The notes under the pieces are model-generated. The model saw only the letters and a list, made by a program, of their open reading frames with translations, made no database searches and was not told where the DNA came from. From Parcubacteria group bacterium Greene0416_36 (lineage in GTDB: Bacteria > Patescibacteriota > Patescibacteriia > VMEV01), in the NCBI GenBank assembly GCA_007375725.1, contig VMEV01000006.1:6929-70928 (forward strand): a DNA stretch of 64,000 bases, read 5' to 3'. The position numbers and the translations under genes are program-made. Positions 6,126 to 53,269 of the stretch are shown here, piece by piece (the first letter of the stretch is position 1; every line of letters begins with the position of its first letter).

Positions 6126-6136
6126 ATAAAGAGGCT

Positions 6137-6215
6137 TTAGGCATTAGGCCATTAGCTTATTAAAAACAACCGTGGCTGTTTTCTAAGAAGCTAATTCCTA
6201 ATAGCCTAATGCCTA
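6137..6215. repeat. Palindromic intergenic element (family R2: GGCATTAGGC..TTAGCTTATTA / TAAGCTAATGCCTAATAGCCTAATGCC), copy 1
   Basis: Imperfect ~80-bp inverted repeat. Similar copies at 13108-13200 and 20612-20655. Confidence 0.75.
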
Positions 6216-6222
6216 ATTACAT

Positions 6223-7675: not shown

Positions 7676-8797
7676 ATGAAAATCGCTCAAATCGTTTCCA
7701 CCTTTTGGCCTTATTTGGGCGGCATGGGCAATGTCACTCGTTTTTTTTCTCAGTATTTATCCGCGAGGGGCCATGAAGTGACGGTCATTACTCCGGAATA
7801 CAGAAAGAAAAATACCGCCGAAGGGGAAGAATCTTTTCCATTTGAAATCCAGAGAATCGCTCCGGTGTTACAATACGGCAATGCTGCGTACTTGTGGGGA
7901 CTTGGCCAATATCTCTGTCAATACGATATTTTGCATCTCCACTATCCTTTTTTCGGCGGAGTGGAACCTTTATTTTTCTACAAACTGCGGCCCAATCAGA
8001 AATTAGTGATCACTTATCACATGGAATTTATTCCCTCGTCGTTTTTTTTATCTTTGGCTTCGAGGCCGGAGAGGCTGCTCCGGGGATCGGTATTTGATCG
8101 TGCCTCTCGGGTGACGGTGTCCAGTCTGGATTATATTGAGCATTCGGGAGACCGGGCTCTCTATACCCAGACTCCGTCGAAATGGATCGAATTACCCTTT
8201 GGTTTTGATCCGCAATTTGATAAAGCGTTATGGACGGGGGGGCAAAAAAATCGTTCACAGAATCCTTTTGTTTTATTCGTGGGCGCCCTGGATCGGGCGC
8301 ATCAATTCAAAGGACTGGGCGTGCTACTGGATGCGATGTGTCTTCTGCCACGGGAGGTTCACTTACGGATCGTGGGAGAGGGGGACTGCCGTGTACTTTA
8401 TGAGAAAGAAGTCCTGACTTTGGGTCTAGCCGAGCGCGTGCGGTTTTGCGGGAGGGTCTCGGATACCATTTTGGGAGAATCTTATCGCGACTGCTTGTGT
8501 CTGGTTCTTCCTTCCACTGGGAAAGGAGAGGCTTTCGGCCTGGTTGCGGTCAATGCCATGGCCGCGGGAAAGCCAGTTATCGCCTCCAATTTGCCGGGAG
8601 TACGAACCGTGGTGGACCCTGGAGTGACCGGTTTTCTGGCCACTCCCGGAGACCCTAAAGATCTTGCCCTGCGATTATCTCATCTGACGGACGATCCTAT
8701 ACTAGCTATTTCAATGGGGGAACAAGGCTACCGGCGGGCTAAAGAAAAATATGACTGGGCTCATTTGGCTCTAAAATTAGAGGGAGTTTATTTATGA
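7676..8797 (+). CDS. Glycosyltransferase family 4
   Basis: MKIAQIVSTFWPYLGGMGN N-terminus. C-terminal GEAFGLVAVNAMAAGKPVIAS matches the GT4 E-x7-E region. ORF opens at 7571 but the ATG at 7676 is the plausible start. Confidence 0.75.
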   Translation: MKIAQIVSTFWPYLGGMGNVTRFFSQYLSARGHEVTVITPEYRKKNTAEGEESFPFEIQRIAPVLQYGNAAYLWGLGQYLCQYDILHLHYPFFGGVEPLFFYKLRPNQKLVITYHMEFIPSSFFLSLASRPERLLRGSVFDRASRVTVSSLDYIEHSGDRALYTQTPSKWIELPFGFDPQFDKALWTGGQKNRSQNPFVLFVGALDRAHQFKGLGVLLDAMCLLPREVHLRIVGEGDCRVLYEKEVLTLGLAERVRFCGRVSDTILGESYRDCLCLVLPSTGKGEAFGLVAVNAMAAGKPVIASNLPGVRTVVDPGVTGFLATPGDPKDLALRLSHLTDDPILAISMGEQGYRRAKEKYDWAHLALKLEGVYL

Positions 8798-11826: not shown

Positions 11827-13125
11827 ATGAATTCCAAACAAAGAATTGTGATTGCCGGGGCGGGTTTTGGGGGGACTTATACCTATGCCCATCTCCATAA
11901 ATATTTTCATGGCCGCCGAGACGTGGAACTGGTGATTATCAACAAGAATAATTATTTTATTTTCACGCCCCTCCTTCACGAGGTTGCCACTGGAGGAGTG
12001 GAGCCTTCCAATATCGTTGAGCCTCTGCGAAAAGTCTGCGGATGCTGTCTCCATGAATTCCATCTGGGGCAAATTGATAAAATTGATTTGGCCGCTAAGG
12101 AAGTTTGGATGGCTAATGAATCTTGCCGCCGTATTCCTTATGATCAGCTTGTTTTAGCCTTAGGAGCCACGACGGCTTATTACGGAACTCCGGGGGTGCC
12201 GGAGTGTGTATTTACTCTCAAAGACCTGGATGATGCCATTCGTATCAAAAATAACCTGATTCATTCCATAGAAGAAGCATATCATTTTCATGACTCGACG
12301 AAAGCAAAAAACAGGCTTCGATTTGTCATTGTGGGCGGAGGGGCAACCGGGGTGGAACTGGCCGCAGAACTGGCGGACTTTTGTTATGAAACTTTCTCTG
12401 CCTACTATCCTCAAGATTTAATTTCCAAAATCGAAATCATTCTTCTGTCAAAAGCAGATAGCCTTTTGGCTTCTTTTTCTCCCCATTTTCGTGAAATAGC
12501 TCATAAAATGTTACTACAAAAAGGGGTCAAAGTGCGCTTGAATGCGGGCGTTGTCCGGGTAGATTCTGATTCGATCGAATTGGATAATGGAGAAAAAATA
12601 GAAACACGAACCGTTATATGGGTCGCGGGTATAGTACCCTCAAAGTGTGATTTTATTTCGAATAAAGAAGTTCTTTTGGATCGTTCGGGCCGCATTGAGG
12701 TCAATGAATATCTGCAGATGAAGGATTATGCTGAGGTTTATGTATTGGGTGATATGGCGTGTTTCAAAAATCCTGGGGACACAAAAGTCGTGCCGGCTTT
12801 GGCTCAGGTGGCCACCAAACAATCAAAAATTGTGGCTTCCAATATCATTGCTTCGATAGACAATAAAACATATCGGCCCTTTTATTATCGTTCCTCGGGT
12901 TCTCTCCTTTCTTTAGGGCGCTGGCTCGCGGTTGCAGAAATAGGTTCTTTCCGATGGGGGGGACATTTGGCGTGGTGGATGTGGAGAACGGTTTATTTAT
13001 CGAAATTATTGTCCTGGAGCAAAAAAATGTATGTGGCGGTGGATTGGACTCTCAATTTATTTTCCCATCGCGATATTTCAGAAATTGGAGGGGGTGGGGG
13101 GAAAAAAACAGGCATTAGGCGTTAG
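11827..13125 (+). CDS. ndh: Type II NADH:quinone oxidoreductase (NDH-2)
   Basis: Two Rossmann motifs: IVIAGAGFGG and FVIVGGGATGVELAAELAD. C-terminal membrane-anchoring segment. Confidence 0.8.
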   Translation: MNSKQRIVIAGAGFGGTYTYAHLHKYFHGRRDVELVIINKNNYFIFTPLLHEVATGGVEPSNIVEPLRKVCGCCLHEFHLGQIDKIDLAAKEVWMANESCRRIPYDQLVLALGATTAYYGTPGVPECVFTLKDLDDAIRIKNNLIHSIEEAYHFHDSTKAKNRLRFVIVGGGATGVELAAELADFCYETFSAYYPQDLISKIEIILLSKADSLLASFSPHFREIAHKMLLQKGVKVRLNAGVVRVDSDSIELDNGEKIETRTVIWVAGIVPSKCDFISNKEVLLDRSGRIEVNEYLQMKDYAEVYVLGDMACFKNPGDTKVVPALAQVATKQSKIVASNIIASIDNKTYRPFYYRSSGSLLSLGRWLAVAEIGSFRWGGHLAWWMWRTVYLSKLLSWSKKMYVAVDWTLNLFSHRDISEIGGGGGKKTGIRR

Positions 13126-13200
13126 GTCATTAGCTTATTAGGAACAAGACCCAACTAGGGCTGTTCCCTAAAAAGCTAATGCCTAATAGCCTAATGCCTC
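13108..13200. repeat. Palindromic intergenic element family R2, copy 2
   Basis: ggcattaggcgttaggtcattagcttattagg...cctaaaaagctaatgcctaatagcctaatgcc. Confidence 0.75.
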
Positions 13201-13208
13201 TTGTTTAG

Positions 13209-13484
13209 CTATTCTAACTGACACTTCTCTCTCTTTTTTCCGTTTTCTTCCGTGATCGAGACTATGGTTCCTTTGTTTTTTTCACATTCCGTGCGGGCGA
13301 AATCAGGCAGGACATAGACGGGATCAGATGCAGGTAGGGCGAGCTCAATTGAATCGGCGGCTGGATTGGCGGAAATGTTATCCTCGGGAGTCGGAGTGGC
13401 CATGCGGCTCCAGATGAGCCACCCTCCCAGTCCTAAAACCAAGACGCCCCCTAGGGTGGCCAGAATAAGTCGGGTTCGATCCAT
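13209..13484 (-). CDS. Small secreted/membrane-anchored hypothetical protein
   Basis: 91 aa with an N-terminal hydrophobic segment. Confidence 0.35.
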   Translation of the reverse strand: MDRTRLILATLGGVLVLGLGGWLIWSRMATPTPEDNISANPAADSIELALPASDPVYVLPDFARTECEKNKGTIVSITEENGKKREKCQLE

Positions 13485-13495
13485 ATATTTATGAA

Positions 13496-14332
13496 TTATT
13501 TAGTATTTAAAAGCTCTTTGCATTCTTTGATGGCCCGGATCACTTCGTCTTTTTTGGCTGGCAGATTTTGAGATAATGTCACGGGGTCCTGTCTGGCCAG
13601 CTGTGAACAGAGCATGATATTTTGTTCAGAAAGAGTCCGTATCGTATGAGTGGAGAGATTATCCAGAATAGTGACGGGATACATGAGCTGAAGATCGATC
13701 ATTTGAGCGAAGGTGCGCTCATGGGGGTGGTTCCATCCAATCATGACCATGTTTTTGCAGTGGCCATACTTGAGGGATTGTTCGGAGAATTTAGCATTGG
13801 TCACGATCCAAACTTCGTCGAAATGAGGGCAAAGGCCGATGCGGTTGCCGTCGATCAAATCCATGTATCGCGCCCAAGTGGACATAGTGTCCTTGATCCC
13901 GATGAAGTCTGATGGATTGTGGCGGAACTTCGCCTCGATCATGGCCGTCCGGCCGTCTTTCTCAACCGTGACATCCACTTCATGTGTCACGCAGGCCCCC
14001 TGCAGATCTCCCGGGAGATCTGCCTTGTATCCATAGGCTGTGAGCACCGCCGCGACATATTTTTCAAAATCAAATCCCGTGGGCCCGAGGCGCAAAATCG
14101 CACTGCGGAGATTATATTTTTTGGCCAGAATCGGATGTTCTCTCCGCAAAATATGATTGAGTTCTTGTGACAATTCCCACGAGAAAATTTTCCGCCCCAA
14201 GAATTTTTTCTCCAGCTGGGCGGATATATGATTAATCGTCTCGGTCGGCGCACCCAATTTGATTAGGATTTTGGACATTTTATCTTTGGAGAAATTTTCG
14301 ATTTGTCCGTTGTTTTTGATGATGGTAAACAT
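13496..14332 (-). CDS. ATP-cone domain fused to Mrr-like PD-(D/E)xK restriction-endonuclease domain
   Basis: N-terminal MFTIIKNNGQIENFSKDKMSKILIKLG...ILAKKYNLRSAI fits ATP-cone. C-terminal FEKYVAAVLTAYGYKADLPGDLQGACVTHEVDVTVEKDGRTAMIEAKF fits the Mrr catalytic core (D..EAK). ORF is open to 14452, but the ATG at 14332 starts exactly at the ATP-cone. Confidence 0.65.
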   Translation of the reverse strand: MFTIIKNNGQIENFSKDKMSKILIKLGAPTETINHISAQLEKKFLGRKIFSWELSQELNHILRREHPILAKKYNLRSAILRLGPTGFDFEKYVAAVLTAYGYKADLPGDLQGACVTHEVDVTVEKDGRTAMIEAKFRHNPSDFIGIKDTMSTWARYMDLIDGNRIGLCPHFDEVWIVTNAKFSEQSLKYGHCKNMVMIGWNHPHERTFAQMIDLQLMYPVTILDNLSTHTIRTLSEQNIMLCSQLARQDPVTLSQNLPAKKDEVIRAIKECKELLNTK

Positions 14333-14341
14333 AGAGCTAGT

Positions 14342-14376
14342 TGAGTAGTGGGTAGGGAGTAGTGAGTAGGTAATAA
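14342..14376. repeat. Heptamer direct repeats (TGAGTAG/TGGGTAG x4-5) in the 5' leader of the ATP-cone nuclease gene
   Basis: tgagtag tgggtag ggagtag tgagtag gtaataa, immediately 5' of the start codon on the minus strand. Confidence 0.6.
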
Positions 14377-14539
14377 GGAGGGCGATGGGGATGGCTGTCA
14401 TCCTGAGCCTGTCGAAGGATCTCATGTGAGAAATCAATATTACCCAATTCATTCATATTACCAAATTGAAGGGCTCTTTGAAAACAAAAAATTGCCTCCG
14501 TTCGGGCAATTTGAGAATAGTTTTTTGCGTGACCCATAT

Positions 14540-14728
14540 CTATTTATCATAGACCCAAGCCTTGGCTTTATTCATGGCGTCTTGTAAGTCTTTTCCTGTT
14601 AGGTCGAGTTTTGTGTTTCCGGAGGATGTGCCGACGTAAATATTTTTTGTACCCTTATCCCATTTTACGGTATATGTTTTGTGCGGGGATTTTCCACCTG
14701 TAACTTTGCCGATAACTTCAGCTGACAT
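14540..14728 (-). CDS. Small hypothetical protein (62 aa)
   Basis: MSAEVIGKVTGGKSPHKTYTVKWDKG... Possibly a small beta-barrel (Tudor/KOW-like). No confident family. Confidence 0.35.
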   Translation of the reverse strand: MSAEVIGKVTGGKSPHKTYTVKWDKGTKNIYVGTSSGNTKLDLTGKDLQDAMNKAKAWVYDK

Positions 14729-14888: not shown

Positions 14889-14962
14889 GCACTCGTAGCT
14901 CAACTGGATAGAGCGCAGGCCTCCGAAGCCTGAGGTTACAAGTTCGACCCTTGTCGAGTGCA
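14889..14962 (+). tRNA. tRNA-Arg (anticodon CCG)
   Basis: Acceptor stem GCACTCG/CGAGTGC. D-arm TAGCTCAACTGGATAGAGC. Anticodon loop CTCCGAA. T-arm ACAAGTTCGACCCTTGT. Discriminator A. Confidence 0.85.
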
Positions 14963-15060
14963 CCCCACTTCGCTCTTTTGTCCGGAATTAAAACGCTGTC
15001 AATTAATTTGACAGCGTTTTTGACGCGCGATAAAATTGAGAAAATATTTTTAGAAAAACT

Positions 15061-15807
15061 ATGCACCTCATACAAAAACAAATCCTAAAAATCGCCCAGG
15101 AGCGGAATCTTCGGGAACTGAGTCTTCGCGCAATCGGCGAGCTTATTGGCGAGCCGAATAGCCCGCAGAAGATCAAGCATCATATGGAGAGTCTCATGGC
15201 CAAGGGATTGCTTGTGGCGTCTGAAGATGGTCAGTCGATCACTCCCATGTCCACGACCATTGATCCGAAGTATCGGCTGGCATCGATTCCTATCTATGGC
15301 GCGGCCAATTGCGGGCAGGCGCTCGTATTTGCCCAAGATCATATTGAAGGGTATTTGAAGTTATCTTTCGGTATTCTCGGGCCCAAGAATCTCAAGAAAG
15401 TGGGGGATCTATTCGTACTCAAGGCGGCGGGAACCTCCATGAACCGTGCGGATATAAAAGGGAAGAGTATCGATGACGGCGATTTTGTGATTATCGAGAA
15501 GACGAGCGTGCAACCGGAAGACGGGGCGTATGTGGTCTCGATCATCGACGGCTCCGCCAATATCAAGAAGTTTTTCCACAATAAAGACGAGGGGCAAATT
15601 ATTCTCCTGTCCGAATCCACGCAAAATCACCCGCCGATTTATATTCATGAAAGCGATTATTCGGATTATGTGGTGTGCGGGCGGGTGATCGATGTGATGA
15701 AAAAGCCAGATGAGCTGTGTTTCGTGCGCAACAAGGCGGCTGAGGATATTTTTCGTCAACTGGGGCCAATTTCGAGGGGCGAATATGATTATTATGAAAA
15801 TTTATGA
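15061..15807 (+). CDS. LexA-like transcriptional repressor / S24 peptidase
   Basis: N-terminal LexA-type wHTH (LIQKQILKIAQERNLRELSLRAIGELIG...HMESLMAKGLL). S24 catalytic Ser in AAGTSMN and Lys in ANIKKF. About 50-aa C-terminal extension. Confidence 0.7.
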   Translation: MHLIQKQILKIAQERNLRELSLRAIGELIGEPNSPQKIKHHMESLMAKGLLVASEDGQSITPMSTTIDPKYRLASIPIYGAANCGQALVFAQDHIEGYLKLSFGILGPKNLKKVGDLFVLKAAGTSMNRADIKGKSIDDGDFVIIEKTSVQPEDGAYVVSIIDGSANIKKFFHNKDEGQIILLSESTQNHPPIYIHESDYSDYVVCGRVIDVMKKPDELCFVRNKAAEDIFRQLGPISRGEYDYYENL

Positions 15808-16157
15808 CAAATAAACTCGAACTCCAATTCGGCGATATTGTCTGGGCGGAGTTTGCTCCCAGCGTGGCGCACCGTTATCAGGATAAGAGGCTCGCGGTTG
15901 TGATTCAATCAGCCAAACCACTCGAAAAATCGCGCCTGGTGACCGTGATTCCGCTCTCATCTCTCGTCGAGGAAAAAGGCGAGGACGATATCATGATTTT
16001 CGCCGACCTAAAAAACAAACTCAAACAAGACGCCATCGCCAAGGTCTATTGCATCTCCTCCTTCGATCACTCCCGTTTCACCAAGAAAATCGGCTCGGTC
16101 AGCCCCAAGGTTTCAGCGGATATTAAAAAATATTTGGAGAGGCATTTTGGGATTTAG
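15804..16157 (+). CDS. PemK/MazF-family toxin (putative endoribonuclease)
   Basis: GDIVWAEFAPSVAHRYQDKRLAVVIQS matches the PemK/MazF N-terminal signature. ATGA start/stop overlap with the upstream LexA-like gene. Confidence 0.65.
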   Translation: MTNKLELQFGDIVWAEFAPSVAHRYQDKRLAVVIQSAKPLEKSRLVTVIPLSSLVEEKGEDDIMIFADLKNKLKQDAIAKVYCISSFDHSRFTKKIGSVSPKVSADIKKYLERHFGI

Positions 16158-16179
16158 TTAAAAATTATTTTTTTGTTCT

Positions 16180-17193
16180 ATGATTAAAAATACTGAGCCG
16201 ACAAAAGGGGAAATTCTTATATATCAAACATCGCCCAATGAGCCCCAAATTGAAATCAAAATTGAAAGGGAAACTATTTGGTTAACCTTAAATCAGATTG
16301 CTGAATTGTTTGATGTAGATAAATCAGGTGTTTCTCGCCACATAAAGAATGTTTTTAAATCTAAGGAATTGCAAAAAGAGGCAACTGTTGCAAATTTTGC
16401 AACAGTTCAAAAAGAAGGGGGTAGGCTCCTGAATCGTACTATTGAATACTATAATTTGGATGCCATTGTTTCTGTTGGATACCGCATTAATTCGAAGAAA
16501 GGTACTCAATTCCGTATCTGGGCTAGTCAAATATTAAAGGATCATCTCGTAAAAGGCTTCACACTCAACCCAAAACGGCTTTCTCAAACCGGCCTTGGTG
16601 AATTTGAAAGAGCGCTTCGTCTTATTAAAAGCACGATTGATTCCAAAGACCTTACTGCCGGTGAGGCTAAAGGCATTTTAGATGTGATCACATCCTATGC
16701 GAATTCATGGGTTCTTCTTCAGAAATATGATGAGGGAAGTATTGGGGCTCCAAAGAAGAAAACAACTCCCTCATTCAAACTAGATTATGGAATAGCTAAA
16801 AAGGCAATCAAAAATCTCAAAGAAGATTTGTTGGATAAACAATCTGCTACTGAATTGTTTGGTGCTGAGCGAGATAAAATGCTTGAGGGCGTGTTGGGCA
16901 GTATTTACCAAACCTTTGCCAAAAAAGAGGTTTACCCTAGTATCGAAGAAAAAGCCGCGCATTTACTTTATTTCATTATAAAAGACCACCCCTTCTCTGA
17001 TGGAAACAAGCGCATCGGCGCCTTCCTCTTCATTTATTTTCTCCAGGAAAATAAATATCTCTACAACCAGCAATCCGAGCGAAAAATTAACGATAATGCC
17101 CTCGTCGCTTTGGCCCTCCTCATCGCCCAAAGTGATCCCAAGGAGAAAGAGGTGATGATCAAATTAGTTATGCATTTTTTGGGGAATAGATAA
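16180..17193 (+). CDS. RhuM-family N-terminal domain fused to Doc/Fic domain
   Basis: IWLTLNQIAELFDVDKSGVSRHIKNVF...HYNLDAIVSVGYRINSKKGTQFRIWASQ matches RhuM. C-terminal HPFSDGNKRIGAF is the Doc-type Fic motif (HxFxDGNKR). Confidence 0.65.
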   Translation: MIKNTEPTKGEILIYQTSPNEPQIEIKIERETIWLTLNQIAELFDVDKSGVSRHIKNVFKSKELQKEATVANFATVQKEGGRLLNRTIEYYNLDAIVSVGYRINSKKGTQFRIWASQILKDHLVKGFTLNPKRLSQTGLGEFERALRLIKSTIDSKDLTAGEAKGILDVITSYANSWVLLQKYDEGSIGAPKKKTTPSFKLDYGIAKKAIKNLKEDLLDKQSATELFGAERDKMLEGVLGSIYQTFAKKEVYPSIEEKAAHLLYFIIKDHPFSDGNKRIGAFLFIYFLQENKYLYNQQSERKINDNALVALALLIAQSDPKEKEVMIKLVMHFLGNR

Positions 17194-20611: not shown

Positions 20612-20655
20612 GGGGTTAGGCTTTAGGCTGTTAGGCATTAGCTTATTAGGCTAAG
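20612..20655. repeat. Palindromic element family R2, partial copy 3
   Basis: ggttaggctttaggctgttaggcattagcttattaggctaagg. Confidence 0.6.
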
Positions 20656-22127: not shown

Positions 22128-22171
22128 CGTTGTTCTCCTAGATCCTGAATCCTTATTCCTAAATCCTAGAT

Positions 22172-24617: not shown

Positions 24618-24648
24618 CTCCTGAATCCTGACTCCTAAATCTCAATCT

Positions 24649-40794: not shown

Positions 40795-40885
40795 TTATAA
40801 TTAAAAATTCAAAATTAAAAATTAATAATGTGACAGCCGGTTGCTTCATTTTTAATTTTTAATTTTTAATTATTAATTGTTGTAT
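40795..40885. repeat. AT-rich ~90-bp palindrome built from AATTAAAAATTAA units
   Basis: aattaaaaattcaaaattaaaaattaataatg...cattttt aatttttaatttttaattattaatt. The related motif aattaaaaattaagaatgaa recurs at about 23045, 36205 and 43380. Confidence 0.6.
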
Positions 40886-49459: not shown

Positions 49460-51541
49460 TTACAAATCCCAAAACTCAAACACCCACACCTTCCCGCCGT
49501 CGATTGGATAAACACTATCCGCGACGGCTTTTGTATTTTGGAGGATACTCTCGAAGTGGGTCCAGTAGGGATGGAGGACGAAATAGGCTTGGTGGACGCC
49601 AGCGATGGCAGCAGCCTGTTTCATAGTCTCGCGCGAGGGCTGCTCGTAAACCATGTCGAGATATTTCTGGTAAAGAGGGGCGCCAGTGGGAATGGAGTAG
49701 AAGAAATTATCACCATAATATTTGCGGAAACCAAATTCACGGAGCGCGGCCGCGCCGAGATTTTGATTGCCGAGGACGATGTATTCTTGGCCATCACTAG
49801 ATGTAGGGGCACAGCGCGCTGTGCCCCTACATCGCGACAATTCTTCAATCTTATGAACCGCCTTGATATCCGACAGAGACACGCTGTACCCGCGTCCGGT
49901 TTCGAAAATATGATGGCGGGGGTAGGAGAAATAGAAAGAGTTAGCGAGGAGAAATACGAGAAAAAGACTTAAAAATAAATGAAACACCCGATTTTTGAGG
50001 CTTTTCTGATAAATGAAATAAAGTCCCGCTAAGAAGAAGGGGAACAGGAAATAGAAGCTCAATTGAATAAGGCGATTGGCATAATCAAGCCGCTCGTATT
50101 CGATGAGATTGCTAAAATTAATGAAGGAGGCGAGAAGGAAGGCGTTGGAGAGGAGGATGAGGAAGGAGGTGAGGAAGAGCGAACGGACCTTTTCAAGTAA
50201 GGGCGTATTGCAATACGCCCTTACGGATAGAGCTACCCCCAATACAACAACGGCCCCATAAATCCAATACACCCCCACCTTCCAAAAATACGCCAAGTCA
50301 TAAAACAGACTGAAATTTTGATTCCATGCCGACCAGTTGAGAAAAGAAAATAGGCTGGAAATAGGGGTAAATCCCTGCCAAGAAAAATTCTCAAAAGGCG
50401 CGCCGGAGAGAATGCCTTGTAGTAAAAATACTGCGGGAACAGCAAAGCAAAGCAGAATTATGGCTGATATTTGAATGAATCGAGGAAAATACTGCTTGAG
50501 TAAAATAAGTATCGGCAAAATAAGCGCGGGAATGCCGACCAGAGGGTGGATGGCGAGAGTGGCGAGGGCGAAAATCCACAGAAGTAAGGGCGTATGGCCA
50601 TACGCCCTTACGAGTAAAGCAGGCTCTATCTTCTGCAAATAAATCCATGCCTCGCACAAAACAAACACCAAAAAGACAGTCGCCAAATTATAAGGCGTGG
50701 GCATGATCCAGTAGGAGAAGGGGAGGATGAGGAGGGTGAAAGGTAATAACAACCATGTCGTGCCTTGTAGGGGCACAGCGCGCTGTGCCCCTAGACCTAG
50801 GGGCGTCGATACAAGCGCCCTCCACACAAAATACGGCACTGCAAAAATACACATCGCCAAGAGTATCTTTTCGATCCAAAAAGGAGATATCGACAAAATT
50901 TTTGCAAAAAACACGACCAAACTATACTGACCGATATAATAAAAAGGTTTGGGCGTAATCGTCCCATGATCCAGAATATATTGCTCGGTCGCTTGGTGAA
51001 TAAACGGATCAAAACCAAATCCGACCGGATAAATAATGAGAGCCGCGGAAACGGAAAAAAGAAAATGGCACGCAATCGCGAAGAGAGCCAAACGCGCCTG
51101 TACACCTTTCTTGATCAAGAGCATCAAAATCCCCGTACAGGCGAAATAGAGGGCGAAGAATTCGGAGCCGACTTGCTCCCAGGGAGAACGGATACTATCC
51201 CAGGTTCGGTGGAGATAGAGATAGTAGGTGAGACAGGCGAGGAGGGTGGCTACCCAAAACCAAGAGCATCCCCGAGGTAAGGGCGTATTGCAATACGCCC
51301 TTACCGACATGGGTAGGGCTGGTGGAAGTAAGGGTACAGCCGCGGCTTGGTGGAGCGACAGGCTCAGGATGACAAGGGTGTGGGATATTAAGGACAATAT
51401 AACAACAATAGCGAGCATCGGCGTGCTCAAATCAACAATATAAAACAGCGCCGTGCCCCAAATAGCGACTAGGGCGAAAAAAAGCATGAGGCTTCTCATC
51501 AGGCCAAATTTGCTGTATGTTTTTAATAAAGTTTTAATCAT
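49460..51541 (-). CDS. Large polytopic membrane protein (putative GT-C-type glycosyltransferase/polymerase-like) carrying five in-frame palindromic insertions
   Basis: At least 12 predicted TM helices. C-terminal soluble domain. ATG at 51541 (the ORF track starts at TTG 51547). Contains P1 copies at 49802-49831 and 50766-50794, and P2 copies at 50197-50224, 50584-50611 and 51277-51304. Confidence 0.6.
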   Translation of the reverse strand: MIKTLLKTYSKFGLMRSLMLFFALVAIWGTALFYIVDLSTPMLAIVVILSLISHTLVILSLSLHQAAAVPLLPPALPMSVRAYCNTPLPRGCSWFWVATLLACLTYYLYLHRTWDSIRSPWEQVGSEFFALYFACTGILMLLIKKGVQARLALFAIACHFLFSVSAALIIYPVGFGFDPFIHQATEQYILDHGTITPKPFYYIGQYSLVVFFAKILSISPFWIEKILLAMCIFAVPYFVWRALVSTPLGLGAQRAVPLQGTTWLLLPFTLLILPFSYWIMPTPYNLATVFLVFVLCEAWIYLQKIEPALLVRAYGHTPLLLWIFALATLAIHPLVGIPALILPILILLKQYFPRFIQISAIILLCFAVPAVFLLQGILSGAPFENFSWQGFTPISSLFSFLNWSAWNQNFSLFYDLAYFWKVGVYWIYGAVVVLGVALSVRAYCNTPLLEKVRSLFLTSFLILLSNAFLLASFINFSNLIEYERLDYANRLIQLSFYFLFPFFLAGLYFIYQKSLKNRVFHLFLSLFLVFLLANSFYFSYPRHHIFETGRGYSVSLSDIKAVHKIEELSRCRGTARCAPTSSDGQEYIVLGNQNLGAAALREFGFRKYYGDNFFYSIPTGAPLYQKYLDMVYEQPSRETMKQAAAIAGVHQAYFVLHPYWTHFESILQNTKAVADSVYPIDGGKVWVFEFWDL
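49802..49831. repeat. GC-rich palindrome family P1, copy in membrane-protein gene (read CRGTARCAPT)
   Basis: tgtaggggcacagcgcgctgtgcccctaca. Perfect 30-bp palindrome, about 70% GC. Confidence 0.85.
50197..50224. repeat. Palindrome family P2 (GTAAGGGCGTATTGCAATACGCCCTTAC), copy 1 (read VRAYCNTPL)
   Basis: Perfect 28-bp palindrome inside the CDS. Confidence 0.85.
50584..50611. repeat. Palindrome family P2, copy 2 (GTAAGGGCGTATGGCCATACGCCCTTAC; read VRAYGHTPL)
   Basis: Perfect palindrome with a centre variant. Confidence 0.85.
50766..50794. repeat. GC-rich palindrome family P1, second copy in membrane-protein gene (read GAQRAVPLQ)
   Basis: tgtaggggcacagcgcgctgtgcccctag. Confidence 0.85.
51277..51304. 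repeat. Palindrome family P2, copy 3 (read VRAYCNTPL)
   Basis: gtaagggcgtattgcaatacgcccttac. Confidence 0.85.
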
Positions 51542-53269
51542 ATGCAAGAGTCAATGCAAGCATTTATAGCTAAATTTCGTAATTTTTTAAATAGGCCGAA
51601 GGTACGAGAATACGCTCCTTTCTTTATTTTAGCGTGTTTTCTGTTTCCGCTATACTCTTACCTCTATTGGACCACGGGTAATCTATTCAATTCTCCGGAT
51701 GAGACGGCCGCTTCTTTCTTTTCACGACTTTATATTGAAACCGGGACTTTTTCATACACCGAACCTTTTAATTCACTGCTTCCCGGGTGGATCCACCCAC
51801 GAAGCATGGTGATTGAAAATGGAACCGTTCTGCCTATCTCTTTTCTGGGGATTTTATTGTTTTTAGGAACTCTTGGCGGAATAGTAGGACCGTGGAGCAT
51901 TCCCTATATCATCCCGCTCCTGTCGGCGATTATTCCTCTATTTTTCTACGGATTTGCCAAACATATTTTCTCATCAAAAACTGCTTTTTGGAGTGCGATT
52001 TTATTGGCCATACATCCGGCTATTATCTACTATAACGAAAGGAATTTTCTGCCAAATGCCTTATTTCTCGATATTTTCATTTTATTCCTCTTCTTTTTTT
52101 TCGCCTGGATATCATGGAAACAGAAGCAAAAATGGATTTTCGCGGTATCGAGTTCGTCTCTCTTGGCACTGCTTATTTCTATTCGACTCTTTGAGGCCAT
52201 ATGGCTGGGGCCGCTGGTACTGATCTTATGCATTCTGTTTTGGAAGAAGAATTCGATGAAAGAATGGCTGATGTGGGGAATATTATGCTCGCTCTTCATG
52301 ACACCTCTCTTGGCGGGTCAATGGATCACATACGGATCTCCCTTTAAAACAGGATATGGCATCACTGGGGATATTATTCCGCCGCCGGAACCATCCGAGG
52401 TAATTGGAGAGCCTGCGATACCCCCCGAACCACCGATTCCAGAACCCCCCGCATGCAAAAGCGTCGAGTGCCTGCCCGGATTCAACAAGGTCTTTCCTTT
52501 TGGCCTAGACCGATATAATATCACTCATAATTTCCAGGCTATTGGCGTGAACCTCTTGGGCATAATTTTCCTGCCTTGTCTTGTTGGGCTTCTTTTATTT
52601 TTCTGGAAAGAAAAGGCCTTTCCTCAAAGAGTTTACAGTGTTTTGGCGCTAGGCATTGCTTTGTATCTCATTGCGGTTTATGGAAGCTGGGGAGTCCGGG
52701 ATAATATCAATCCAAATATTACGACTATTGGACTATCCCATGTGCGCTATTGGCTGCCGATCTGGGCTTTCTTCCTGCCTTTTAGCGCGTACCTTTATCT
52801 CAAAATTACCCGGGGAAACAAAATAGCCATGAGCATAATTATTCTAGGACTATCCATTTACTCAGGAAAAGTCGTCTTGGGATCTTCTGAAGACAGCATT
52901 CATCATGTGTTAGCCAGCATCCGCCACTATCAGCAAGTCCAGAATGATTTTTCCGCTTTGGCTCCCGAGGACTCCATCATCATTTCCGAACGCAGCGACA
53001 AAATTTTCTTTCCCAAGTATCGCGTGATTTCAGTTCCCGATAAGAATTACGTGCATGTGTTTTCTCATATCCAAAAACTTTTAGAACAAGCTCCGATTTA
53101 TTTTTATACCCAAATGCCCGATTCCGATATCCAATACCTCCAGTCCCGGCATTTAGAATTTCAGGGGCTTTATTTTAAAGAAGTAAAGAAGTGGGAGGAT
53201 GGGTTTAGGATGCACGTCATCCGCGATCAACAAATCCCCCTTAATCCCCCTTTGACAAGGGGGACATAG
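51542..53269 (+). CDS. GT-C fold glycosyltransferase (ArnT/PMT-like, family 39/83)
   Basis: Polytopic membrane protein. First extracytoplasmic loop has NSPDETAASFF (DE motif). 575 aa. 3' end runs into an R1 element (..PLNPPLTRGT). Confidence 0.6.
   Translation: MQESMQAFIAKFRNFLNRPKVREYAPFFILACFLFPLYSYLYWTTGNLFNSPDETAASFFSRLYIETGTFSYTEPFNSLLPGWIHPRSMVIENGTVLPISFLGILLFLGTLGGIVGPWSIPYIIPLLSAIIPLFFYGFAKHIFSSKTAFWSAILLAIHPAIIYYNERNFLPNALFLDIFILFLFFFFAWISWKQKQKWIFAVSSSSLLALLISIRLFEAIWLGPLVLILCILFWKKNSMKEWLMWGILCSLFMTPLLAGQWITYGSPFKTGYGITGDIIPPPEPSEVIGEPAIPPEPPIPEPPACKSVECLPGFNKVFPFGLDRYNITHNFQAIGVNLLGIIFLPCLVGLLLFFWKEKAFPQRVYSVLALGIALYLIAVYGSWGVRDNINPNITTIGLSHVRYWLPIWAFFLPFSAYLYLKITRGNKIAMSIIILGLSIYSGKVVLGSSEDSIHHVLASIRHYQQVQNDFSALAPEDSIIISERSDKIFFPKYRVISVPDKNYVHVFSHIQKLLEQAPIYFYTQMPDSDIQYLQSRHLEFQGLYFKEVKKWEDGFRMHVIRDQQIPLNPPLTRGT

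What the first reader, a model, noticed from the sequence alone, without database searches (positions are those of the whole stretch)
13496..14452. ATP-cone domain fused to an Mrr-type PD-(D/E)xK nuclease, with heptamer repeats in its leader
The N-terminal ~90 aa match the nucleotide-binding ATP-cone domain, the allosteric (d)ATP sensor of ribonucleotide reductases and NrdR. The C-terminal half matches the Mrr restriction-endonuclease catalytic core (D-x13-EAK). A nucleotide-sensing domain on a nuclease suggests a (d)NTP-pool-responsive DNase, a plausible phage-defence or stress effector. It is functionally uncharacterised as far as I know. Immediately 5' of its start codon are 4-5 tandem heptamers (CTACTCA/CTACCCA on the coding strand, 14342-14376), where an RBS would normally be, together with a GTCATCCTGAGC-type hairpin repeat. 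A regulatory or phase-variable leader is possible. The flanking genes are small orphans (62 aa and 91 aa).
Basis: partly seen in the sequence, partly recalled or inferred. Interest (0 to 1): 0.7.

Follow-up and report, generated by a model that had tools for sequence, protein, structure and literature searches.

The report
ATP-cone-gated AF1548-type nuclease gene
This is a real gene for a DNA-cutting enzyme fused to an ATP/dATP sensor; it belongs to a very large, catalogued but untested family whose gene neighbours point to nucleotide recycling rather than phage defence.

Summary
The gene is real. Its true coding region is 13496-14332 (-), 278 aa, not the 318-aa maximal ORF. The catalytic residues E90/D120/E133/K135 are invariant. 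The source is a Parcubacteria (CPR) MAG. The family is large: at least 517 clusters at 50% identity with this architecture, and over 7,500 clusters at 90% identity around a Bacteroidota homologue. RefSeq names members only by domain, and I found no paper on the fusion. It matches no PADLOC or PHROG model and has no phage homologue. In CPR genomes it sits in conserved synteny among housekeeping genes. Where other lineages have a tight operon partner, that partner is a nucleotide-metabolism enzyme: beta-CASP nuclease, archaeal-type nucleoside/NMP phosphorylase, PRPP synthetase, LOG or ATP-cone NrdJ. I read it as an adenine-nucleotide-gated nuclease serving nucleotide economy or DNA turnover (inferred), not a defence effector. 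The heptamer leader exists but is not gene-specific. Period-7 mini-arrays are a feature of intergenic DNA across the window, the tract is not conserved in homologues, and no copy-number variation was seen.

The parts
13496..14332 (-). True CDS, 278 aa: ATP-cone / AF1548-type PD-(D/E)xK nuclease / (HhH)2
   Evidence: The family profile aligns from Met at 14332. Nearly all homologues listed are 260-300 aa. AF2 model: pLDDT 92.8, pTM 0.88.
14093..14332 (-). ATP-cone domain (aa 1-80)
13718..14086 (-). Conserved linker (GPxGFxFEKY) plus PD-(D/E)xK nuclease core (aa 83-205). Catalytic codons: E90 14063-14065, D120 13973-13975, E133 13934-13936, K135 13928-13930
13508..13681 (-). C-terminal AF1548-like_C domain (aa 218-275), (HhH)2 fold
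14342..14370 (-). Four imperfect heptamers CTACTCA/CTACTCC/CTACCCA/CTACTCA, ending 9 nt before the ATG
   Evidence: TRF period 7, 4.0 copies, 76% match, score 35. Repeat family D1. Not conserved in homologues.
14397..14414 (-). 18-nt motif CGACAGGCTCAGGATGAC, one of two copies in the window
   Evidence: Two exact copies against 0.01 expected. Absent from the other 104 loci. The local hairpin GGATG/CATCC is weak.
14437..14467 (-). Tandem 13-mers AATT(T/G)GGTAATAT. The upstream copy reads TGGTAATAT, an extended -10-like box, so it is a tentative promoter
   Evidence: Direct repeat D2. The sequence was read. The consensus scan found no promoter of at least 9/12 here, so the assignment is inference.
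14489..14512 (-). Terminator-like hairpin ending the upstream 62-aa gene. It separates that transcription unit from the nuclease gene
   Evidence: 8-bp stem plus T-run. Inverted repeat I2.
14540..14728 (-). 62-aa ORF with a strong SD (AAAGGAG) and a TTGACA-16-TATGAT promoter. Not co-conserved with the nuclease
   Evidence: No cluster partner in the other fetched loci.
13209..13484 (-). 91-aa ORF with an N-terminal hydrophobic segment. Not co-conserved with the nuclease
13110..13199 (.). About 90 nt long hairpin built of heptamers (AGGCATT x3 ... AATGCCT-type x3) between convergent genes. Probable bidirectional terminator or REP-like element. A second copy lies at 6132-6217

Best explanation
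The gene encodes a 278-aa three-domain enzyme. An N-terminal ATP-cone is joined by an invariant linker (GPxGFxFEKY, which carries the first catalytic Glu) to an AF1548-type PD-(D/E)xK endonuclease core and a C-terminal (HhH)2 nucleic-acid-binding domain.

Shown:
- The three folds.
- The intact catalytic tetrad.
- Retention of the residues that line the inner adenine-nucleotide pocket of NrdR.
- Strong purifying selection and syntenic, vertical-looking inheritance in Patescibacteria.
- No defence signatures.
- Recurrent tight operons with nucleotide-metabolism enzymes in other phyla.

Inferred:
- As in RNR and NrdR, binding of ATP versus dATP (or of other adenine nucleotides) to the cone changes the oligomeric or conformational state and switches the nuclease on or off.
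- The enzyme cuts DNA, or nucleic acid generally, to feed or balance the nucleotide pool (salvage or turnover), possibly overlapping with DNA repair.
- The direction of the switch, the substrate and the oligomer are unknown.

The heptamer tract and the 18-mer upstream are part of a genome-wide style of intergenic repeats. They are not a dedicated switch for this gene.
For: - Domains.
- Invariant E90/D120/E133/K135 and K6/G9 across CPR, Bacteroidota and Chlamydiota.
- NrdR ligand residues (bioRxiv 10.1101/2025.03.28.645925) map to I4, K6, E12, F14, K18, K25, S51 and L54.
- Family size and uniform length.
- Synteny: identity is equal to or above that of neighbours. L004/L006 is 76% against a median of about 77%. 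L010/L012/L013 is 78-89% against 38-50%.
- Housekeeping neighbours.
- Operon partners: cone -> beta-CASP MBL -> TP-family -> PRS in Pontibacter and Criblamydia plasmids and a TARA scaffold. beta-CASP is adjacent in 9 loci. There are overlapping or 4-nt junctions with NrdJ, LOG, TP-family and beta-CASP.
- Partner identities come from Pfam and NCBIfam.
- No PADLOC, PHROG or phage hits.
- ATP-cone mechanism precedent: PMC12051234.
Against: - No biochemical data exist for any member, AF1548 included.
- Only about 14 of 101 loci have a nucleotide-metabolism partner directly adjacent. None of the close CPR relatives does, and the 64-kb window holds no TP, PRS, MBL or RNR homologue.
- The window copy's ATP-cone is divergent: sub-threshold on Pfam, P->N at the lid, R->K at position 25.
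- The Tyr that discriminates ATP from dATP at NrdR's outer site has no clear equivalent. The sensed ligand may therefore not be the ATP/dATP pair.
- Some loci do sit near toxin-antitoxin or mobile genes: PemK/Fic/S24 in the window, PIN and DUF559 in L018, a resolvase in L019, and plasmid copies.
- DNA-repair neighbours (UDG, Y-family polymerase, PDDEXK_1, RmuC) fit a repair role equally well.
Confidence: 0.5

Rival explanations
1. DNA-repair or recombination nuclease. The nuclease-(HhH)2 layout copies the XPF/Mus81/Hef plan. The enzyme would cut branched or damaged DNA, and the ATP-cone would couple cutting to dNTP availability for repair synthesis.
For: - The C-terminal domain matches RAD51, RAD51C and NusA (HhH)2 domains. 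The core matches NucS, Hjc and Bax1.
- Neighbours include UDG (5 loci), Y-family polymerase (4), PDDEXK_1 nuclease (7), RmuC (L022) and PolX (L018).
- JGI calls some members 'Holliday junction resolvase'.
Against: - Most of these neighbours come from one or two syntenic clades. They may reflect shared ancestry rather than function.
- None of these repair-type neighbours was examined for operon junctions (one search covered only the RNR, LOG, TP-family, beta-CASP and Usp loci).
- The tight junctions that were found are with metabolic enzymes.
- No substrate data exist.
Confidence: 0.22
2. Phage-defence or abortive-infection effector. Infection perturbs ATP/dNTP pools, the cone senses this, and the Mrr-like nuclease is unleashed on phage or host DNA.
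For: - The catalytic core is of the Mrr/MspJI/AspBHI kind. It resembles ligand-gated defence nucleases: Can2, Card1, Cap4, NucC, Shedu, Avs.
- The window has S24-PemK-RhuM/Fic about 0.7-2.9 kb upstream, beyond tRNA-Arg.
- L018 has PIN and DUF559, and L019 a resolvase/primase.
- Two homologues are plasmid-borne.
Against: - No PADLOC, PHROG or phage match.
- No methyltransferase or other defence partner appeared in 101 loci.
- The gene has a stable syntenic position and housekeeping-level conservation. The family is 45-55% identical across CPR classes and uniform in length.
- The plasmid copies sit in a metabolic operon.
- BipA-x-target synteny in L001, L005 and L028 suggests the TA/Fic module is a local insertion.
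Confidence: 0.12
3. NrdR-like regulator. The protein would use the nuclease and (HhH)2 domains mainly to bind DNA. It would repress nrd or other genes according to ATP/dATP, as a Zn-ribbon-less analogue of NrdR.
For: - An ATP-cone joined to a DNA-binding module is the NrdR logic (PMC12051234).
- In L033 and L036 the gene overlaps or abuts nrdJ. From memory, this recalls the nrdR-nrdJ operon of Streptomyces.
Against: - All four catalytic residues and many other active-site-proximal residues are invariant over sequences 28-55% identical. This argues for catalysis.
- Only 2 of 101 loci are adjacent to nrd, with 2 more within 8 genes.
- There is no Zn-ribbon.
Confidence: 0.08
4. The heptamer and 18-mer leader is a gene-specific regulatory or phase-variable element controlling this nuclease.
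For: - The tract ends 9 nt before the ATG, and the gene has no Shine-Dalgarno.
- The 18-mer is non-random.
Against: - The heptamers are imperfect (76% match).
- The translated leader is identical in 4 GenBank accessions naming at least two MAGs, and in a separate 318-aa Logan member whose sequence I did not compare.
- There is no counterpart upstream of 14 homologues. Several of those look leaderless.
- The window has 17 period-7 arrays against 1.6 expected, and several abut other start codons.
- Most genes here lack an SD.
- The fold z-score is -1.26, and there is no Rfam hit.
Confidence: 0.05

Closest known systems
AF1548 of Archaeoglobus fulgidus (PDB 1Y88; Pfam PF04471 Mrr_cat + PF22357 AF1548-like_C)
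   Different: AF1548 has no ATP-cone. It is a structural-genomics protein, predicted to be a restriction endonuclease only from sequence (PMC1821046). No function is known.
NrdR and the activity site of ribonucleotide reductases (ATP-cone, PF03477)
   Different: The output domain is a nuclease, not a Zn-ribbon or an RNR barrel. The equivalent of the outer-site Tyr is not evident. There is no evidence yet for nucleotide-driven oligomerisation.
Mrr-family / type IV restriction enzymes (Mrr, MspJI, AspBHI, LlaBIII nuclease domain)
   Same: The catalytic fold and motif family are shared.
   Different: There is no modified-DNA reader domain. The gene is not in variable regions, is far more conserved than restriction enzymes, and has no R-M partners.
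Ligand-gated PD-(D/E)xK effectors (Can2, Card1, Cap4, Cdn1)
   Different: The sensor is an ATP-cone that would read housekeeping adenine nucleotides, not CARF/SAVED reading cyclic oligonucleotides. There is no CRISPR or CBASS context.
XPF/Mus81/Hef structure-specific nucleases
   Same: The domain order is the same: nuclease followed by (HhH)2.
   Different: The nuclease subfamily differs (ERCC4 was not tested here). This is only an architectural analogy.

Membership tests
ATP-cone domain (PF03477) | Profile match at or above Pfam's gathering score | tested here: inconclusive
   The window protein scores 18.0 bits against 25.8 (E=0.004). 29/30 aligned family members hit at E<=1e-3, best 2.6e-11.
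ATP-cone domain (PF03477) | Beta-hairpin lid plus four-helix cone fold | tested here: met
ATP-cone domain (PF03477) | Conserved adenine-nucleotide ligands (Lys in lid, Glu/Phe of lid, Lys of helix 1, Ser/Thr of helix 3) | tested here: met
   K6, E12, F14, K18, K25, S51 and L54 align to NrdR K53, E59, F61, K65, R72, S105 and I108. K6 is invariant and K18 is >=90% conserved.
ATP-cone domain (PF03477) | Binds ATP/dATP and changes oligomeric state | not testable with these tools
   Needs ITC/MST and SEC-MALS or mass photometry.
AF1548-like / Mrr-type PD-(D/E)xK nuclease | Significant sequence and fold similarity to AF1548 (1Y88) | tested here: met
AF1548-like / Mrr-type PD-(D/E)xK nuclease | Catalytic E...D-x(n)-E-x-K motif intact | tested here: met
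   E90, D120, E133 and K135 are invariant in A1 and A2. They align to AF1548's predicted D/E/K (PMC1821046).
AF1548-like / Mrr-type PD-(D/E)xK nuclease | Pfam Mrr_cat at or above the gathering score | tested here: not met
   19.1-19.6 bits against 21 on this copy. 22/30 members hit at E<=1e-3.
AF1548-like / Mrr-type PD-(D/E)xK nuclease | Metal-dependent nuclease activity | not testable with these tools
   No member has been assayed, as far as the literature searches show.
Type IV (Mrr-like) restriction / anti-phage defence system | Modified-DNA reader domain, or a match to a known defence model | tested here: not met
   The N-terminus is an ATP-cone, not a winged helix/SRA/PUA domain. PADLOC gives no hit at E<=1.
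Type IV (Mrr-like) restriction / anti-phage defence system | Patchy distribution in variable or defence islands | tested here: not met
   Syntenic retention, with identity at or above that of neighbours. Housekeeping or metabolic neighbours in 101 loci. A minority lie near TA or mobile genes.
NrdR | N-terminal Zn-ribbon plus C-terminal ATP-cone | tested here: not met
   There is no Zn-ribbon. The cone is N-terminal and is followed by a nuclease.
NrdR | Genomic linkage to nrd genes | tested here: inconclusive
   Adjacent to ATP-cone NrdJ in L033 and L036, and within 8 genes in L031 and L032, out of 101 loci. There is no nrd gene in the window.
Phase-variable simple-sequence-repeat switch | Repeat copy number varies between strains or reads | tested here: not met
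   The 309-aa ORF that translates through the leader is identical in 4 GenBank accessions naming at least two MAGs (8 contigs carry it). A 318-aa Logan member was not compared. Read-level data were not available.
Phase-variable simple-sequence-repeat switch | Long, near-perfect tandem tract specific to the regulated gene | tested here: not met
   4 copies at 76% match. The window has 17 period-7 arrays against 1.6 in shuffles.

The most novel reading that the evidence does not exclude
The ATP-cone nuclease is the gated entry enzyme of a nucleic-acid-to-nucleotide recycling route. The route would run: endonuclease, then beta-CASP exonuclease, then archaeal-type NMP/nucleoside phosphorylase or LOG, then PRPP synthetase. 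It would be feedback-controlled by (d)ATP in the same way as ribonucleotide reductase. In Patescibacteria, which from general knowledge largely lack de novo nucleotide synthesis, it would control how much acquired or own DNA is converted into building blocks. That would make it a second, RNR-independent, allosterically regulated source of deoxynucleotides.
Probability: 0.22. Interest if true: 0.72.

Novelty: new variant of a known kind. Interest (0 to 1): 0.48.

Why it matters
ATP-cones are understood only as switches on ribonucleotide reductases and on NrdR. A nuclease under the same switch would extend that allosteric logic to DNA or RNA breakdown.

The family is very large: thousands of clusters across Patescibacteria, Bacteroidota, Chlamydiota and some archaea. 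Databases name it only by its domains.

The operon links found here (NrdJ, AMP/thymidine-phosphorylase family, PRPP synthetase, LOG, beta-CASP nuclease) turn it into a concrete, testable hypothesis about nucleotide economy. That question is central to the biology of ultra-small CPR bacteria. Cultured Bacteroidota (Pontibacter, Sporocytophaga, Flavobacterium) carry homologues, so genetics and biochemistry are feasible.

It also corrects an over-extended GenBank start, and it removes a tempting but unsupported 'defence gene' label.

Tried and rejected
- NCBIfam gave no hit for the window protein or for the Pontibacter homologue. PADLOC and PHROGs gave none for the window protein.
- Rfam found only tRNA-Arg at gathering threshold. 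At permissive threshold on the leader it found only noise.
- The leader fold is not better than shuffles.
- Literature searches found no paper on the fusion. Terms tried: AF1548; ATP-cone with endonuclease, Mrr, nuclease or Patescibacteria; 'ATP cone domain-containing protein'. One query was malformed.
- A six-term search for the operon's gene set found nothing. The Burkholderia lxa low-oxygen locus (PMC3721108) shares themes (Usp, class II RNR, 'lysine decarboxylase', P-type ATPase). It mentions no nuclease, phosphorylase or PRS, so it is only an analogy.
- Searching the window and the CPR loci for MBL, TP, PRS and phosphoketolase found only phosphoketolase, about 4 kb away in L009 and L019.
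- No second ATP-cone protein occurs in the window or in the loci fetched by then (L001-L019).
- I looked for an att-like repeat of the tRNA-Arg 3' end to delimit an island and found none.
- The afdb50 fold library was unavailable, and PMC2632000 is not held.
- The single-protein scan of genome contigs returned only 15 loci. I used an alignment for the metagenome scan instead.
Full report
1. WHAT IS IN THE SEQUENCE

The mechanical ORF is 13496..14452 on the minus strand, 318 aa. A profile built from 30 homologues aligns to it only from residue 41, the ATG at 14332. Nearly all homologues listed in the two large searches are 260-300 aa.

The true CDS is therefore 13496-14332, 278 aa. The identical GenBank protein is annotated with 309 aa and an over-extended start. 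It is P0001, 'hypothetical protein', from Parcubacteria group bacterium Gr01-1014_18 and Greene0416_36. The window comes from a Patescibacteria (CPR) MAG.

2. DOMAINS

On the window protein alone, Pfam gives three sub-threshold hits:
- AF1548-like_C, 20.9 bits
- Mrr_cat, 19.1 bits
- ATP-cone, 18.0 bits

The family evidence is decisive.
- 29, 27 and 22 of 30 aligned members hit ATP-cone, AF1548-like_C and Mrr_cat respectively at E<=1e-3.
- PDB entry 1Y88 (AF1548) matches at E=3.3e-24 with the single sequence and E=7.3e-39 with the profile.
- An AlphaFold2 model built on the alignment is confident: pLDDT 92.8, pTM 0.88.

The catalytic motif is E90...D120-x12-E133-A-K135.

All four catalytic residues are invariant in CPR members. 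They stay invariant when Bacteroidota and Chlamydiota members at 27-32% identity are added. The linker G83-P84-x-G86-x-x-F89-E90 is also invariant.

The inner adenine-nucleotide pocket of E. coli NrdR is lined by V51, K53, E59, F61, K65, L66, R72, S105 and I108 (bioRxiv 10.1101/2025.03.28.645925). These residues align to I4, K6, E12, F14, K18, M19, K25, S51 and L54 of the window protein. The Tyr131 equivalent of the outer site is not evident.

3. HOW BIG AND HOW KNOWN THE FAMILY IS

A profile search of 1.84 billion representatives finds 517 clusters at 50% identity at E<=1e-30. Nearly all have the same length and cover the whole profile.

A search seeded with a Bacteroidota homologue returns over 7,500 clusters at 90% identity at E<=1e-20, at the candidate cap. 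Sources name them 'ATP cone domain-containing protein', 'restriction endonuclease' or 'ATPase'. Named hosts include Pontibacter, Sporocytophaga, Flavobacterium, Cyclobacterium and Saprospiraceae.

A Bathyarchaeota contig carries the cone and the nuclease in two overlapping frames. This is a frameshifted or split gene (L016).

The architecture is thus catalogued by databases. However, I found no paper that discusses it. AF1548 itself is only a structural-genomics entry, predicted to be a restriction enzyme (PMC1821046).

4. GENOMIC CONTEXT

In the window, the gene is a single copy. It has its own transcription unit.
- The upstream 62-aa gene has a strong promoter, a Shine-Dalgarno and a terminator-like hairpin at 14489-14512.
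- The downstream 91-aa gene is followed by a long hairpin at 13110-13199.
- Neither small ORF recurs next to any homologue.
- Beyond tRNA-Arg(CCG) at 14889-14964 lie an S24 repressor, a PemK toxin and a RhuM/Fic protein.

Across 101 loci there is no universal partner (ORFs clustered).

CPR relatives sit among housekeeping genes:
- PBP1, dnaN, dnaA, rpmH, rnpA
- rpsP, trmD
- RNase Y, HU
- One clade keeps the order MltG-MnmA-target-MgtC/PDDEXK_1/UDG-AlaRS

Within syntenic sets the gene keeps its place. It is as conserved as its neighbours, or more so. BipA lies upstream and co-directional in three CPR lineages including the window. This suggests the TA/Fic module in the window is a local insertion.

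Outside CPR the tight partners are nucleotide-metabolism enzymes.
- A four-gene cluster occurs on plasmids of Pontibacter actiniarum and Criblamydia sequanensis: ATP-cone nuclease, then beta-CASP MBL (RMMBL), then thymidine-phosphorylase family, then ribose-phosphate pyrophosphokinase. The four proteins are 49-60% identical between the two plasmids.
- The same cluster occurs in a TARA scaffold, there followed by PPK2 and a P-type ATPase.
- beta-CASP is directly adjacent in 9 loci.
- Gene junctions overlap or leave 4 nt with NrdJ (L033, L036), LOG (L046), TP-family (L044) and beta-CASP (L082).
- Pfam and NCBIfam confirm the partner identities. The phosphorylase is the archaeal-type PRK04350/TIGR02645 kind, related to AMP phosphorylase.
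- Several Bacteroidota loci add arrays of Usp genes upstream.

No restriction-modification or known defence gene recurs. There is no PADLOC, PHROG or phage match.

5. THE LEADER

Four imperfect heptamers (CTACTCA, CTACTCC, CTACCCA, CTACTCA) lie at 14342-14370 and end 9 nt before the ATG.

They are real but not special to this gene.
- The window has 17 period-7 TRF rows at score >=30, against 1.6 (maximum 4) in 30 dinucleotide shuffles. At score >=35 it has 10 against 0.03.
- 13 of 16 arrays are intergenic. Several others also end 3-10 nt before a start codon.
- Only about 5 of 22 nearby genes have a Shine-Dalgarno. An SD-less start is the rule here.
- None of 14 homologues has a similar leader. 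Several have a -10 box 7-11 nt before the ATG, which looks leaderless.
- The ORF that reads through the leader is identical in four GenBank accessions naming at least two MAGs. No copy-number variation is seen.
- The 18-mer CGACAGGCTCAGGATGAC occurs twice in the window against 0.01 expected, and nowhere in the other loci.
- The predicted leader fold is not better than shuffles, and Rfam finds nothing.

6. MECHANISM

Shown:
- An intact nuclease active site.
- An ATP-cone with its inner pocket preserved.
- An invariant short linker that places the first catalytic Glu about 10 residues after the cone's last helix.
- A compact predicted assembly (pTM 0.88).
- A DNA-binding-type (HhH)2 tail.

Inferred from the established behaviour of ATP-cones (ATP/dATP-dependent oligomer switching in RNR and NrdR; PMC12051234):
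- Adenine-nucleotide occupancy switches the nuclease between active and inactive assemblies.

From context I favour a role in nucleotide economy. This means cutting nucleic acid for salvage or turnover in step with the (d)ATP pool, with a DNA-repair role as the main rival. Which nucleotide activates, which substrate is cut, and the oligomeric state are all unknown.

7. COMPARISON AND NOVELTY

By sequence and fold it is a member of the AF1548 nuclease family and carries a bona fide ATP-cone.
- It is not an Mrr-type restriction enzyme in the functional sense. It has no modified-DNA reader and no variable context.
- It is not NrdR, because it has no Zn-ribbon.
- It works most like a ligand-gated PD-(D/E)xK nuclease (Can2, Card1, Cap4), but with a housekeeping-nucleotide sensor.

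The fusion is already present in databases, so the sequence is not new. The functional idea, an ATP-cone gating a nuclease tied to nucleotide-metabolism operons, appears undescribed. I rate it a new variant of a known kind, with moderate interest (0.48).

Noticed in passing
window-wide; e.g. 22136-22168, 24619-24641, 6191-6217, 20616-20641, 40848-40878, 14343-14370: Period-7 mini-arrays are strongly enriched: 17 TRF rows against 1.6 in dinucleotide shuffles, and 10 against 0.03 at score >=35. They are almost all intergenic. Several G-poor arrays on the coding strand end 3-10 nt before start codons, in a genome where most genes lack a Shine-Dalgarno. Period 10 is also enriched (10 against 2.9). 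Function unknown.
   Followed up: partly
window 6132-6217 and 13110-13199: There are two copies of a hairpin element of about 90 nt, made of AGGCATT-type heptamers and their inverted complement. The second copy lies between the convergent ndh-like gene and the 91-aa ORF. It is probably a bidirectional terminator or REP-like element.
   Followed up: partly
window 51276-51305 and 51356-51373 (inside ORF 49460-51547, - strand): A perfect 30-nt palindrome GGTAAGGGCGTATTGCAATACGCCCTTACC and the second copy of the 18-mer lie in the 5' part of a 695-aa membrane-protein ORF. The ORF translates further similar GC-rich motifs (SVRAYCNTPL twice, RGTARCAPT). This suggests repeat elements inside, or inflating, the called ORF.
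   Followed up: no
window 14889-17193: tRNA-Arg(CCG) is followed by a co-directional S24/LexA-like repressor, a PemK toxin and a RhuM/Fic-domain protein. This looks like a small mobile or toxin-antitoxin module, but no att-like repeat of the tRNA end was found within 6 kb.
   Followed up: partly
window 13496-14452; GenBank TSC56209.1 and three other accessions: The public annotation starts the protein 31 codons too early (309 aa). It translates the repeat-containing leader (MRSFDRLRMTA...).
   Followed up: yes
L020 1972-6597 (Pontibacter plasmid NZ_CP021236.1) and L021 7995-12602 (Criblamydia plasmid NZ_LK031773.1): The same four-gene cluster (ATP-cone nuclease, beta-CASP MBL, TP-family phosphorylase, PRPP synthetase) lies on plasmids of two different phyla. 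The proteins are 49-60% identical, which implies horizontal transfer of the cluster as a unit. In Criblamydia it is flanked by phosphoketolase, glgP and acetate kinase.
   Followed up: partly
L016 7727-8600 (Bathyarchaeota contig CAVYYP010000014.1): The ATP-cone (7727-8029) and the AF1548-type nuclease (7986-8600) lie in two overlapping reading frames. This is either a frameshift error in a fused gene or a naturally split version. It shows that the cone-nuclease association also exists in archaea.
   Followed up: no
L083, L095, L105, L062: In several Bacteroidota-like metagenome contigs, one to three or more tandem-Usp genes and a conserved 133-152-aa unknown protein (cluster C49, no Pfam hit; absent in L105) precede the nuclease-beta-CASP pair. 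P-type ATPase, PPK2 and LOG genes recur nearby in other loci. This is reminiscent of hypoxia or dormancy loci such as Burkholderia lxa (PMC3721108).
   Followed up: partly
window 14540-14728: The 62-aa ORF has a near-consensus promoter (TTGACA-16-TATGAT), a strong Shine-Dalgarno and a terminator-like hairpin. It looks like a genuine small gene, with no Pfam family above its curated cut-off and no PHROG hit.
   Followed up: no
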